Shown: positions 1-3,000 of the stretch, one piece after another | Numbering within the stretch: the first letter of the stretch is position 1 | Layout: every line of letters begins with the position of its first letter | NCBI GenBank assembly: GCA_964654465.1 | Contig: CAZZIO010000035.1 | Location: 1-64,000 of the forward strand | DNA: 64,000 nt | Direction: 5' to 3' | Source of the DNA: an uncultured Dictyoglomota bacterium | GTDB taxonomy: Bacteria; Dictyoglomota; Dictyoglomia; Dictyoglomales; Dictyoglomaceae | Program-made: the position numbers

Positions 1-3000
1 ATGAAGGAAGAGGAGGCTACTGGTGATTAGAGCGGAGGGGAAACGCCCGTTCCCATTCCGAACACGGAAGCTAAGCCCTCCAGCGCCGATGGTACTGCCC
101 TGGCAACGGGGTGGGAGAGTAGGTCATCGCCAGAGAGCCTCCTCTTTTTTTGATCAGTGTAAATTATTTCTGTTATTATTTTTAATCAATTTTAAAATTA
201 GGAATCTTGACAAAAAATTTTTAAAATGTTAGTATTATTTCAAAAAGAATTTGTTAAGAACCTTTCCAGGCGAGGGTCCCCTTCCCCCCTCACCCATCAC
301 CCCCTACCTCGCCTGGAAAGTTCTTTTAATTAATATATGCAAAAAGGGAGGAGTTTAAAATGAAAAAAATGATGAAGAATAATAGATTTTTAAAAATTTT
401 TTTAATGATTATATTATTTGTCCTATTAATTCATACATCTTACTCAATAGCCAATATAGGAGAAAATGAAAAAGCTATAGATTTTTCACTTAAAGATCTA
501 AAGGGGAAAAATTATAGGCTTTCTGATTTTAAAGGGAAAGTTATTTTATTAAATTTTTGGGCTACATGGTGCCCTCCATGTAGATATGAAATGCCGTTAT
601 TAGATAAGCTATACAAGGAACATAAAAATAAAGGATTTGAAATAGTGGCTGTTAGTCTAGACTCCAATCCTAAAAATGTTAATGATTACTTAAAGAATAA
701 TCCAGTTAGTTTTACTATTCTTTCTGACAGAGAAGGAAAAGCAGGATATACATATCAAATTGTAGCTATACCAACATCTTTTTTAATTGATAAAAATTTT
801 ATTATAAGAAAAATTTATTTAGGAATTATCTCAGAAAAGGATATTAAAAAGGAATTGGAAAAATGGCTAAAAAAGTAATTATAAGATTTTTTATATTCTT
901 TCTTATATTCCTTTTTTTGACTATTGGTATTTATATGGGAGAATTTTATGAGATCTATAGAAATAGTATTATTTTGTGTTTATCTTGTATAGGTATTCAA
1001 TAATTATTAGTAAAAATAATCTTTTTCTCTGAAATAATAATATCAACTTTTTGATCGTAAGGATCTTTTGGAAGTTCATTAATGATTAAATCGTCAAAGG
1101 TTAAACCTATTTTTATACCTCTTTTAATGTTGCTTAAAAAACGATCATAGTAACCTTTACCATAACCTATTCTATAACCTTTAACATCAAATGCAATTCC
1201 AGGTACTACAATAATATCGAACAAGTTATAATCTATTTCATAAATCTCCTTAGGTTGCAGTATACCAAATGGACCTTTTTCTAAATCATTAATTGTCTTA
1301 ATTTCTCCAAATTTTAAGTCTTTACCAAAGATAACGGGGCAAAATACTCTTTTGTTTTCTACAAGAGCATGATAAATTATGAACCTTGTATCTACCTCAT
1401 CTTTTATAGAGACATAAGTGTTAATTATAGATGCTTTTCCCCAAATAACTAAATTCTTCAGCTTATGAAAAATTTCATGAGATTTTACCTCTTTATCTCT
1501 TATATTCCTTCTTTTTTCTAAAAATATCTTCCGCAATTCTTTTTTATCCATTTATATAACCTCTTTTCTTTTTTTAGTTTATATATTATAATCCAAAAAA
1601 GCCTGCAGATCTTTAGGATCGCGGGACAATATCAATAAATATCAATATAAATAGTCAAATCAAAAAAACGGCATCCCTTGTTGGGGAGCCGGAAGGGAGG
1701 TATTAAAATGTTTAAAAACATCAAAAAAATCTCATTAGCATCTCTTTTTGTTGCAATTACCCTCTTATTAGGTTTTTCACGTATAGGCTATATATCCCTA
1801 CCAACACCAGCAGGTGCTGCAACAATAATGCATATTCCAGTGATATTAGCAGGCATTGTTATGGGACCATGGTTTGGAGCCTTAGTAGGTAGCATTTTTG
1901 GCATTTCTGCAGTTATGTATTTTTCCCATATTGCTCCTTTCTGGGTGCTTTTTCCTGCAAGACCTTTTATTGGTATTGTTTCAGGTCTTGTTTATAATTT
2001 TCTCTTATCCTTTTTTAGGTCTCAAAAGAAGCTTAAAAACTCTACCGCTTTTATTATCTCTTTTGTAGTTTTCTCTTTCGCATATCTTAGTGGTGTCTAT
2101 ATCATGAGAGAGTGGTTTACAGAAAGCCTTATTAATTACTCTTTAGAATTTAGTTTTTTAATAGCTTTAATCTCTTTTATCATAGCTTTTTTAATTTTAT
2201 TTATAATAAAAGAAAAAGAAGGAGAAATAGTTGCCATTGGAATAGCATCCTTCTTAGGAAGTATGACTAACACTGTGGGAACTCTTGGTCTTGCAGCAAT
2301 TTTTAAAATTTTCCCATTAGGAGTTATTATATCCATAGGAATTCTTCATGGTATTCCAGAAGCAATTATCGCGTCAATAATTTGTCCACCTATAGTTGTA
2401 TTATTAAAAAGATTAATTAAGGAGAGTGCATAGGGTATGCTTTTAACTATAGATATCGGCAATTCAAATATAGATATAGCTTATTTTAAAAAAAATAAAA
2501 TTATATCTCATTATGAATTTGAGACTAAGAAATACTCTACAAGCTATGAATATTCACTACTTATTGAATGGACTCTAAAAAGAAATGGGATCTCCGAGGC
2601 TAAAGTAGAAGGTATAGCTATATCTTCTGTAGTTCCATCTCTTACCTCAGTTTTTGTTGATGCCATAAGATATATCTTCAATTATTCTCCTTTTGTTGTA
2701 GAACCAGGAATAAAAACAGGAATCTCCATAGAGACAGAAAACCCCAAAGAGGTAGGTTCAGATCTTATATGTAATGTGGTTGCTATTCAAGAAGAGTATG
2801 GTCCAGTTGGAATAGCTATAGATTTTGGCACAGCAACTACTTTTTCTGCTATAGAGAATAAGAAATTTTTAGGAGTAGCTATAGCACCGGGCGTAGGGAC
2901 GGCATCCTACGCCCTCTTTGAAAAAACCGCTAAACTTCCTCAAGTAGATATTAAAGCTCCAGAATCTTCCTTAGGAAAAAACACTATATCTGCAATTCAA

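What a model noticed while it worked through the whole genome (the two positions that open the first line are those of the whole stretch)
1587..1712. Tandem bulged-A hairpin leader RNA before the panT-coaX operon
A promoter at C35:1587-1592 is followed by a 5' leader with two hairpins (1602-1625 and 1669-1691), each with one bulged A, ending 3 nt before the ribosome-binding site of a PanT-family ECF S-component (ATG 1708) that is followed by coaX. It is a conserved, structured cis-regulatory RNA that matches no Rfam family, in a genome without panB and panC. Its ligand or partner is unknown; a CoA-pathway riboswitch is the bold reading.
Evidence so far: No Rfam match at E<=0.01 or <=10; RF01749 absent from the genome. 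Model R1 from 6 sequences finds one hit of 55.9-124.6 bits in 11 of 11 family genomes, next best 27.1 bits. 198 of 198 cells paired, 11 of 18 pairs compensatory, 0 of 500 shuffles, slid controls 29-48%; 16 sequences of two phyla: 99.6% of 278 cells, 13 of 18 pairs. Each of 9 sequences folds hairpin 1 alone. Same genes downstream in 9 of 9 family loci and in 3 Haloplasmataceae-type loci. PanT: 4rfs_S 1.5e-16, 6zg3_C 2.9e-12. No panC, no panB.
(Added by a program. Inside this text positions count along the whole contig: contig position 1 is position 1 of the stretch shown here. "Call 12" and the like, gene names such as g00115 and contig names such as C1 are that model's own, and its searches are not shown. 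The text may have been shortened before it was handed on; [...] marks where a part breaks off. The agent that wrote the report below was given it as the finding of a first reader that could run no searches.)

Follow-up and report, generated by a model that had tools for sequence, protein, structure and literature searches.

The report
Divergent pan-motif leader before panT-coaX
The two-hairpin leader is real and conserved, but it is a diverged form of the already described "pan" RNA motif, here placed before a vitamin B5-type uptake and kinase operon in bacteria that lack both pantothenate synthesis and CoaBC.

Summary
Window 1601-1691 (+) carries two conserved hairpins between a TATAAT box (1587-1592) and the ribosome-binding site of a PanT-like ECF S-component gene, followed by coaX. 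All 11 Dictyoglomaceae genomes have it. On a MAFFT alignment 97.8% of 225 cells pair, 12 of 21 pairs show compensatory change, and slid controls give 34-45%.

The reading "matches no Rfam family" is true only by score. Hairpin 1 has two bulged A's (A1607, A1626) on opposite strands, exactly 5 bp apart. That is the defining architecture of the pan motif (RF01749, Weinberg 2010). In a neighbouring lineage with the same panT-coaX operon, RF01749 scores above its gathering cut-off in 4 of 6 loci. My Dictyoglomaceae model hits the same sites in 6 of 6. A pan-hairpin model built only from panB leaders of other phyla places 8 of its 9 hits on the Dictyoglomaceae hairpins.

I read it as a new variant of a known orphan motif. 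It most likely acts as an operator whose occupied second hairpin blocks the adjacent Shine-Dalgarno sequence. The effector is unknown.

New context: the family lacks panB, panC and also CoaB and CoaC. Any effector shared with panB-type pan RNAs should therefore lie at or after 4'-phosphopantetheine.

The parts
1587..1592 (+). TATAAT -10 box; the inferred transcription start lies about 7 nt downstream, just before hairpin 1
   Evidence: Read from the sequence. A TATAAT lies 7-13 nt before hairpin 1 in the family leaders. The consensus scan did not call it because of a weak -35 box. No transcript data are available.
1601..1627 (+). Hairpin 1 (pan-type). It has a lower pair G1601-C1627, a 3' bulged A1626, a 5-bp middle stem 1602-1606/1621-1625, a 5' bulged A1607, an upper stem 1608-1612/1616-1620 and a loop
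   Evidence: MFE fold; covariation. G1601, A1607, A1626 and C1627 are invariant in 11 of 11 sequences. It is aligned in register with pan hairpin 1 through L052/L055.
1628..1668 (+). A/U-rich linker, 41 nt here
   Evidence: Its length is 28-47 nt in the 11 family leaders and its sequence is poorly conserved. The RF01749 consensus also has an A/U-rich linker.
1669..1693 (+). Hairpin 2 (truncated pan-type). It has a stem 1669-1672/1688-1691, a 5' bulged A1673 and an upper stem 1674-1678/1683-1687. Then come the invariant G1692 and A1693, the counterpart of the 3' bulged A. There is no lower stem
   Evidence: MFE fold. 100% of cells pair, and pair 101-122 runs G-C / G-U / A-U. GGAA is invariant. 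R2 aligns it with the proximal hairpin of L052, L055 and L064.
1694..1700 (+). Shine-Dalgarno sequence (AGGGAGG), starting 3 nt after the last pair of hairpin 2
   Evidence: Read from the sequence. It is unpaired in the MFE fold and conserved in 11 of 11 leaders.
1708..2433 (+). PanT-like ECF transporter S component (241 aa)
   Evidence: PF12822, 8.4e-17. A 30-sequence profile hits only 4rfs_S (4.8e-14) and 6zg3_C (2e-09) in the PDB. 4RFS is named PanT in PMC5037267 (passages).
2437..3204 (+). coaX, type III pantothenate kinase (255 aa), starting 3 nt after the panT stop codon
   Evidence: PF03309, 2.2e-60. NF009855, 255.2 bits, above its cut-off of 233.

Best explanation
The element is a diverged member of the pan RNA motif family (Rfam RF01749). 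It serves as the 5' leader operator of the panT-like/coaX operon.

Shown:
- There are two plus-strand hairpins with strong covariation.
- Hairpin 1 has two invariant bulged A's on opposite strands, 5 bp apart.
- Hairpin 2 keeps the 5' bulged A and the 3' A but has lost the lower stem.
- The Shine-Dalgarno sequence starts 3 nt after hairpin 2.
- No terminator and no SD-sequestering helix is present.
- Orthologous leaders in a neighbouring lineage score as RF01749.

Inferred:
- A trans-acting effector binds the bulged-A helices when the CoA pathway is replete. It is most likely a dimeric RNA-binding protein with one subunit per hairpin.
- Occupancy of hairpin 2 sterically blocks 30S binding at the adjacent SD, which lowers translation of panT and of the coupled coaX.
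- With no effector bound, both hairpins still form and the SD is free, so the default state is ON.
- The family has no PanB, PanC, PanD, CoaB or CoaC. The signal it shares with panB-type pan RNAs should therefore be CoA, 4'-phosphopantetheine or a protein that senses them, not pantothenate.
For: Structure and strand:
- 97.8% of 225 cells pair, 12 of 21 pairs are compensatory, and slid controls give 34-45%. RNAalifold agrees.
- Seven G-U cells on the plus strand would be A-C mismatches on the minus strand.

Kinship with pan:
- Weinberg 2010 defines pan as a stem interrupted by two conserved bulged A's, mostly in tandem, before pan genes (PMC2864571, section 23).
- The RF01749 consensus structure is lower 3 bp / 3' A / 5 bp / 5' A / upper stem. 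Hairpin 1 fits it in 11 of 11 leaders, with the same invariant G|C...G-A-C.
- R1 was built from 15 pan hairpins of 12 loci, all directly before panB. It places 8 of its 9 hits (E<=10, 8.7-12.7 bits) in 27.6 kb on the leader hairpins, in register.
- RF01749 scores 42.3, 40.4, 37.6 and 37.2 bits on L055, L052, L054 and L053, just before panT-coaX. R2 hits L051-L056 at the same coordinates with 31.9-38.3 bits, hairpin on hairpin.
- 35 of 51 PanT-relative loci carry the signature GAACGGAG within 120 nt upstream, as part of a two-bulged-A hairpin that abuts the SD.

Mechanism:
- The SD is free in the MFE fold, and there is no terminator-like site in 1400-1800.
- The linker varies from 28 to 47 nt and the loops vary.
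- In 10 of the 12 panB loci the Rfam model was below its gathering score, and in most of them only one two-bulged-A hairpin was evident in my descriptor scan.

Pathway:
- panB 0 of 11 and DFP (CoaB) 0 of 11. Flavoprotein (CoaC) 0 of 11 above cut-off. Controls ring 14 of 14 for DFP and Flavoprotein, and 11 of 14 for panB. panD is absent from G000.
- CoaE and CoaD-like genes are present.
Against: - RF01749 gives no hit at E<=10 in the window, the own genome or any of the 11 family loci.
- R1 scores are individually weak (E 0.39-4.6), and the window's own hairpin 1 (L001) is not among its hits.
- R3 was built from 20 PanT-type proximal hairpins without the SD. It finds hairpin 2 in only 1 of 11 Dictyoglomaceae loci (7.6 bits, E=6), although it finds L064, L065 and L067.
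- Hairpin 2 lacks the lower stem, so it meets the two-bulged-A definition only in part.
- RF01749 misses L051 and L056.
- All family members are kin, so covariation counts overstate the number of independent events.
- No binding partner, ligand or transcript has been observed.
- The direction of regulation is pure inference.
Confidence: 0.6

Rival explanations
1. It is a metabolite-binding riboswitch. Each bulged-A helix, or the pair together, directly binds a CoA-pathway small molecule (CoA, dephospho-CoA, 4'-phosphopantetheine or pantetheine), and ligand binding alters access to the SD.
For: The gene context is strictly CoA-related: panB/panC and panT/coaX. According to the methods passage of PMC6593275, TPP, FMN, THF and B12 riboswitch regulons were used to annotate vitamin genes, and no B5 regulator is listed there. 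In Bacillota-type leaders the lower stem of the proximal hairpin pairs into the SD, as in a translational OFF switch. The bulged A's and their flanking pairs are the most conserved positions.
Against: The structure is very simple, with variable loops. Three loci carry loop insertions of tens of nt (L072, L090, L091). The linker length is variable. Pan hairpins also appear singly before panB in most of the 12 loci. In Dictyoglomaceae there is no helix that could sequester the SD and no terminator, so a small ligand has no obvious way to act. Weinberg 2010 judged the motif more suggestive of a dimeric protein site.
Confidence: 0.25
2. It is an independent RNA class that resembles pan only by convergence, for example a site for a Dictyoglomaceae-specific factor.
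For: There is no RF01749 hit in 11 of 11 family loci. R1 and R3 scores on the family are weak. The upper-stem sequences differ from the pan consensus.
Against: The same operon in the neighbouring lineage carries leaders that score with both RF01749 and the Dictyoglomaceae model at identical coordinates. The invariant G|C...G-A-C, the 5-bp spacing, the tandem layout, the A/U-rich linker and the SD abutment are all shared. The loose two-bulged-A descriptor occurs only 32 times in 3.8 Mb of both strands of the own genome.
Confidence: 0.1
3. It is not a sensor. The hairpins would be 5' stabilisers of the mRNA, or minus-strand terminator look-alikes in a divergent intergenic region.
For: On the minus strand both hairpins are followed by U runs. 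Several weak Rfam matches on the minus strand were driven by this. 5'-terminal hairpins can stabilise mRNAs (general knowledge).
Against: Both flanking genes start in this spacer, so nothing needs terminating here. Seven G-U cells fit only the plus strand. The invariant bulged A's and the conserved GGAA next to the SD are not needed for stability. The motif tracks PanT genes across phyla.
Confidence: 0.05

Closest known systems
pan RNA motif (Rfam RF01749; Weinberg et al. 2010, PMC2864571)
   Same: Each has a stem interrupted by two conserved bulged A's on opposite strands, 5 bp apart. Two such hairpins stand in tandem, joined by an A/U-rich linker. The second hairpin abuts the SD. The location is a 5' UTR of pantothenate/CoA genes. 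The invariant G|C...G-A-C flanks the middle stem.
   Different: It scores below E=10 with the Rfam model. The upper stems are longer and differ in sequence. Hairpin 2 has lost its lower stem. It lies before a transporter-kinase salvage operon rather than panB/panC/panD. It occurs in Dictyoglomota, and the word Dictyoglomus does not occur in the four supplement files searched. The host lacks the biosynthetic genes that pan RNAs were described with.
PanT-type pan-like leaders of Bacillota/Clostridia and of the L051-L056 lineage (found here)
   Same: They sit before PanT-like S-component genes, often next to coaX. The proximal hairpin has a 5' bulged A and a 3' ...GG-A-A followed by GGAGG. L064, L065 and L067 share the hairpin 2 top and 3' strand almost letter for letter.
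   Different: Those leaders keep a 3-6 bp lower stem that pairs into the SD. Most are also missed by RF01749: 17 of the 20 loci gave no hit at E<=1.
Riboswitch-controlled vitamin genes (TPP, FMN, THF and B12 riboswitches)
   Same: A vitamin uptake gene is preceded by a conserved structured leader. That ECF S-component genes such as thiT, ribU and folT are the usual targets is my recollection. PMC6593275 lists only the riboswitch regulons, in its methods passage.
   Different: Those aptamers are complex, ligand-validated folds. This one is a pair of simple helices with no known ligand.
Phage coat-protein operators (MS2, PP7): a hairpin with a bulged A bound by a protein dimer that blocks a start site (recalled, not tested)
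   Same: A bulged-A hairpin lies next to a translation start, and repression works by steric occlusion.
   Different: No homology is claimed. Those have one hairpin per dimer and a viral context.

Membership tests
pan motif (RF01749) | [quoted passage not shown] In the Rfam consensus they lie on opposite strands, 5 bp apart | tested here: met
   Hairpin 1 meets it in 11 of 11 family leaders: A1607 and A1626 are invariant, the middle stem is 5 bp and the lower stem covaries. Hairpin 2 meets it only in part: 5' bulged A1673 and the invariant A1693 are present, but the lower stem is missing.
pan motif (RF01749) | Tandem arrangement of two such hairpins | tested here: met
   Two hairpins are separated by a 28-47 nt A/U-rich linker in 11 of 11 leaders. 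The RF01749 consensus has a 31-nt A/U-rich linker.
pan motif (RF01749) | Location in the 5' UTR of pantothenate-pathway operons (panB, panC, panD) | tested here: inconclusive
   The leader lies before panT-like/coaX, which encode uptake and the first CoA step, not before panB/C/D, which the family lacks. The same pathway is involved but a different gene set. RF01749 itself hits above cut-off before panT-coaX in L052-L055.
pan motif (RF01749) | Score at or above the Rfam gathering threshold (36.2 bits) | tested here: not met
   There is no RF01749 match at E<=10 in window 1540-1760, in the own genome or in the 11 family loci. This is an operational threshold, not a biological definition. Of the 12 panB-linked matches, 10 also fall below it.
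pan motif (RF01749) | Homology shown by intermediate sequences | tested here: met
   R2 (the Dictyoglomaceae model) hits L051-L056 at 31.9-38.3 bits (6 of 6). RF01749 hits 4 of these 6 at 37.2-42.3 bits at the same coordinates, and the hairpins are aligned in register.
pan motif (RF01749) | Recognition by a pan-hairpin model trained without this family | tested here: inconclusive
   With R1, 8 of 9 hits in 27.6 kb fall on the leader hairpins, but each is weak (8.7-12.7 bits, E 0.39-4.6). Hairpin 1 of L001, L002 and L004 is not hit. R3 finds hairpin 2 in 1 of 11 loci.
PanT (ECF pantothenate S component) | Closest solved relatives are PanT chains, and the gene lies in a CoA-gene context | tested here: met
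   The 30-sequence profile hits only 4rfs_S (4.8e-14) and 6zg3_C (2e-09). The single sequence and the family profile are not significant. coaX is adjacent. The substrate is not testable here, and the absence of CoaBC raises the possibility of pantetheine.

The most novel reading that the evidence does not exclude
The pan family is wider than Rfam shows. It would be a single regulon system that controls both pantothenate synthesis (panB-type) and salvage (PanT-type) across at least Dictyoglomota, an unnamed sister lineage and Bacillota. Dictyoglomaceae and the L051-L056 lineage keep the operator while lacking PanB and CoaB; Dictyoglomaceae also lack PanC and CoaC, and the window's own genome lacks PanD. 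The effector of this 16-year-old orphan motif would therefore be CoA or 4'-phosphopantetheine, sensed directly or through an as yet unknown dimeric RNA-binding protein. The Dictyoglomaceae leader would be its minimal, purely steric form. Their 'PanT' would then import pantetheine rather than pantothenate.
Probability: 0.35. Interest if true: 0.7.

Novelty: new variant of a known kind. Interest (0 to 1): 0.55.

Why it matters
The pan motif has had no known effector in any paper I could find.

This locus adds three usable facts:
- The motif family reaches salvage genes (a PanT-like S component and coaX) and a new phylum.
- The current Rfam model misses most of these instances.
- The motif is kept in organisms that lack every step from aspartate and ketoisovalerate to 4'-phosphopantetheine except the kinase. 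That narrows the plausible signal to the end of the CoA pathway.

It also supplies a regulator candidate for PanT. No RNA or protein regulator is listed for B5 genes in the vitamin regulon survey I read (PMC6593275, passages).

The absence of CoaBC from a whole family that keeps CoaX, CoaD-like and CoaE genes is of separate interest for vitamin cross-feeding in hot-spring communities.

Tried and rejected
- No RNA holder is listed for window 1300-3300, only DNA or metagenome runs. I laid no reads.
- The single-sequence and family-only PDB searches for PanT gave nothing at E<=0.001.
- The NCBIfam search gave only a sub-threshold FolT-subfamily match (28.9 bits against a cut-off of 60).
- RF01749 found nothing at E<=1 on whole genomes G061 and G151-G154.
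- R1 found no pan hairpin in five regions upstream of panB in G151, G152 and G154 (one hit of 9.4 bits, inside the gene's start region). I could therefore not show panB-type and PanT-type operators in one genome.
- R3 gave 5 hits over 151 diverse genomes. Only G061 is a real PanT leader. The other four lack a PanT/CoaX match within about 1.5 kb and look like chance hits in coding sequence.
- A loose two-bulged-A descriptor over the own genome gave 32 hits. The only other one with the same middle stem (contig C4) lies inside a coding region. I therefore found no second operator in this genome.
- I considered minus-strand terminators and rejected them because of the G-U pairs and the gene layout.
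- I considered CoaX as the binding protein and did not test it. CoaX is adjacent only in some PanT-type loci.
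Full report
WHAT IS THERE. Window 1552-1707 is the spacer between a minus-strand 5-formyltetrahydrofolate cyclo-ligase gene (997-1551) and a plus-strand operon. The operon encodes an ECF S component (1708-2433, PF12822, 8.4e-17) and a type III pantothenate kinase (2437-3204, PF03309, 2.2e-60; NF009855 above its cut-off). After a TATAAT at 1587-1592 come two hairpins. 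They are the minimum-free-energy fold of 1596-1712, at -27.6 kcal/mol with z = -2.95. They remain the best fold up to 80 C. That matters because near-identical DNA is held by hot-spring metagenomes. No terminator-like site lies in 1400-1800. The Shine-Dalgarno sequence (1694-1700) is unpaired and starts 3 nt after hairpin 2.

IS IT MORE THAN CHANCE. Record titles of close relatives place the organism in Dictyoglomaceae. The collection holds 10 other genomes of the family. All 11 carry the leader, the S-component gene and coaX. On a plain MAFFT alignment of the 11 leaders (A3), a structure of 21 pairs has 220 of 225 cells paired and 12 pairs with changes on both sides. In 0 of 500 shuffles was the paired fraction or the covariation score reached, and partners slid by 1-3 columns pair in only 34-45% of cells. 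RNAalifold predicts the same fold unaided. The members are kin, so these counts overstate independent events. Even so, the pair types differ between the three genera at many positions. Seven G-U cells fit only the plus strand. This disposes of the idea, raised by U runs after both hairpins on the minus strand, that these are minus-strand terminators. A model of the whole leader (R2) finds one site in the own genome (106.8 bits; next best 19.3).

Hairpin 1 does not end at 1625. A1626 is bulged and G1601-C1627 closes the helix. In the other genera this lower stem is 2-7 bp long and covaries (columns 15-18 with 52-55). G1601, A1607, A1626 and C1627 are invariant. Hairpin 1 is therefore a stem interrupted by two bulged A's on opposite strands, exactly 5 bp apart. 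Weinberg et al. [quoted passage not shown] The RF01749 consensus shows the same layout: lower 3 bp, 3' A, 5 bp, 5' A, upper stem. It is present twice, joined by an A/U-rich linker, with the SD after the second hairpin. The authors' own alignment has the same invariant G|C...G-A-C around a variable middle stem (supplement file 4, parts 27-28). It was built on RefSeq 25, and the word Dictyoglomus does not occur in the four supplement files searched.

TESTS OF KINSHIP.
(a) The Rfam model itself gives no RF01749 match at E<=10 in the window, the own genome or the 11 family loci.
(b) I built a model trained without this family. RF01749 found 14 matches (13 places) in 151 diverse genomes, of which 2 were above cut-off. 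The 12 loci I fetched all lie directly before panB, and in 8 of them panC follows. From them I took 15 hairpins (one misaligned hairpin was dropped) and built R1. With filters off over 9 family loci (27.6 kb, both strands), 8 of its 9 hits at E<=10 fall on the leader. It hits hairpin 1 in 6 loci and hairpin 2 in 2, with bulged A aligned on bulged A. The scores are weak (8.7-12.7 bits), and the window's own hairpin 1 is not hit.
(c) I looked for intermediates. A search with the PanT alignment returned 51 loci. In six loci of an unnamed lineage (L051-L056; PanT 49-53% identical; coaX downstream), R2 hits just before the gene at 31.9-38.3 bits. RF01749 hits the same coordinates above its gathering score of 36.2 in four of the six: 42.3, 40.4, 37.6 and 37.2 bits. 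L051 and L056 are missed. The printed alignments put Dictyoglomaceae hairpin 1 on pan hairpin 1 and hairpin 2 on pan hairpin 2. The invariant A1693 falls on the second 3' bulged A.
(d) R1 also gives 19 hits in the 51 loci. All are on the gene's strand, and 17 lie within about 145 nt before the PanT start, mostly in Bacillota/Clostridia MAGs.
(e) 35 of the 51 loci carry GAACGGAG within 120 nt upstream. That is 33 distinct 44-nt windows, listed, plus two loci with windows identical to a listed one; the script dropped those two as duplicates. The signature forms the 3' end of a two-bulged-A hairpin whose lower stem runs into the SD. Six more loci are the Dictyoglomaceae form. Ten lack the signature and the Dictyoglomaceae form (six Caldisericota loci and four further loci: Halonatronum, Fuchsiella, Frackibacter, Orenia). 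Most of these Bacillota leaders are invisible to RF01749: 17 of the 20 loci scanned gave no hit at E<=1.
(f) One result argues against a simple story. R3, built from 20 PanT-type proximal hairpins without the SD, finds L064, L065 and L067 (14.5-18.9 bits). It finds hairpin 2 in only 1 of 11 Dictyoglomaceae loci (7.6 bits, E=6). The loss of the lower stem explains this drop in score. It also means that the homology of hairpin 2 rests on the chain through L064-type and L052-type leaders, not on a direct hit.

WHAT THE GENES SAY. The S component is PanT-like. A 30-sequence profile hits only 4rfs_S (4.8e-14) and 6zg3_C (2e-09) among all PDB chains, and 4RFS is PanT (PMC5037267, passages). The single sequence and the family-only profile are not significant. 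The family has no panB (0 of 11) and only three 52-residue nucleotidyltransferase-like matches to panC. G000 has no panD. Unexpectedly, no CoaB domain (PF04127, 0 of 11) and no CoaC above cut-off (PF02441, 0 of 11) was found, while the controls ring 14 of 14. CoaE and CoaD-like genes are present. G061, of the L051-L056 lineage, also lacks PanB and CoaB. Four Bacillota genomes with PanT-type leaders all have CoaB, and three of the four have PanB. The canonical route from pantothenate to CoA is therefore broken in Dictyoglomaceae. This matches the 'pantetheine shunt' pattern described for some gut bacteria (PMC6593275, section 11 passage).

HOW IT MOST LIKELY WORKS. The following points are shown:
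- There are two stable plus-strand helices with invariant bulged A's.
- The SD is free and lies 3 nt from hairpin 2.
- There is no terminator and no SD-sequestering helix.
- The loops and the linker (28-47 nt) are variable.

The following points are inferred. An effector binds the bulged-A helices, and when it is bound at hairpin 2 it covers the SD and lowers translation of panT and the coupled coaX. I favour a dimeric protein for four reasons. The units are simple. They also appear singly before panB in most of the 12 loci. The loops tolerate insertions of tens of nucleotides (L072, L090, L091). In this family a small ligand has no expression platform to act through. In Bacillota-type leaders the lower stem itself pairs into the SD, so a ligand-stabilised OFF helix remains possible there. 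The same motif family serves panB operons and a salvage operon in hosts that cannot make or use pantothenate in the canonical way. The common signal should therefore be CoA, 4'-phosphopantetheine or a sensor of them. Nothing here shows binding or the direction of control.

COMPARISON AND NOVELTY. I class it as a new variant of a known kind: a diverged pan motif that fails the Rfam score threshold but meets the structural definition in hairpin 1, meets the tandem layout, and is tied to RF01749 by intermediates. It is not a new class. What is new:
- the phylum;
- the salvage-gene context, which the canonical model also detects in the L052-L055 lineage;
- the breadth of PanT-type leaders that Rfam misses;
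- the metabolic setting.

I found no paper that assigns an effector to pan or an RNA regulator to PanT (searches; these cover open-access papers and bioRxiv only). Additional files 1, 3 and 6 of Weinberg 2010 could not be opened and may bear on ligand tests.

Noticed in passing
whole genome G000 and family genomes G001-G010: No CoaB (PF04127) was found in any of the 11 Dictyoglomaceae genomes, and no CoaC (PF02441) above cut-off, while the controls ring 14 of 14. CoaX, CoaD-like and CoaE genes are present. This points to pantetheine or 4'-phosphopantetheine salvage. The 'PanT' cargo may therefore not be pantothenate.
   Followed up: partly
L064, L068, L070, L073, L079, L082, L093 (about 100-1300 nt before the PanT gene): A Peptidase_S58 (DmpA-like aminopeptidase) gene sits directly upstream of the pan-like leader and PanT, on the same strand, in 7 of the 12 Bacillota/Clostridia loci examined. 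A link to beta-alanine or pantothenate-like substrates is possible.
   Followed up: no
L066, L076, L086 (and probably L075, L078, L087, judged from the reading frame only): In these loci coaX lies upstream, and a pan-like hairpin sits between coaX and panT. The operator there is internal to the gene pair.
   Followed up: partly
L072, L090, L091 (about 1430-1490; L091 about 1170-1235): The loop of the proximal hairpin carries long insertions made of repeated GC-rich units, while the bulged-A stem and GGAACGGAGG are kept.
   Followed up: no
window 1708-2433 and the PanT relatives in A5: PanT-like proteins come in a long form and a short form. The long form (227-245 aa) occurs in Dictyoglomaceae, L051-L056, Caldisericota and L063-L067. 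The short form (168-187 aa) occurs in most of the Bacillota loci. The long form has extra residues in the middle of the protein.
   Followed up: no
L057-L062 (Caldisericota) and L081, L085, L088, L095: These PanT relatives lack the GAACGGAG signature and the Dictyoglomaceae form of the leader in the 120 nt upstream. The six Caldisericota loci (L057-L062) also have no coaX downstream.
   Followed up: partly
L036:1570-1598 (-): Upstream of a canonical pan hairpin before panB lies a second hairpin with the same two-bulged-A, 5-bp architecture but an unrelated sequence. Architecture may therefore be conserved beyond sequence. I dropped this hairpin from the R1 training set because it misaligned.
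   Followed up: no
L006:1698-1792 (+): There is a sub-threshold preQ1-II riboswitch match (34.9 bits against a gathering score of 47, E=0.025) in a Dictyoglomaceae relative, near the divergent neighbour gene.
   Followed up: no
window 3261-6860: Downstream of coaX lie a FecR-domain protein (590 aa) and a CHASE2-adenylate/guanylate cyclase (607 aa). They are unrelated to the finding.
   Followed up: no
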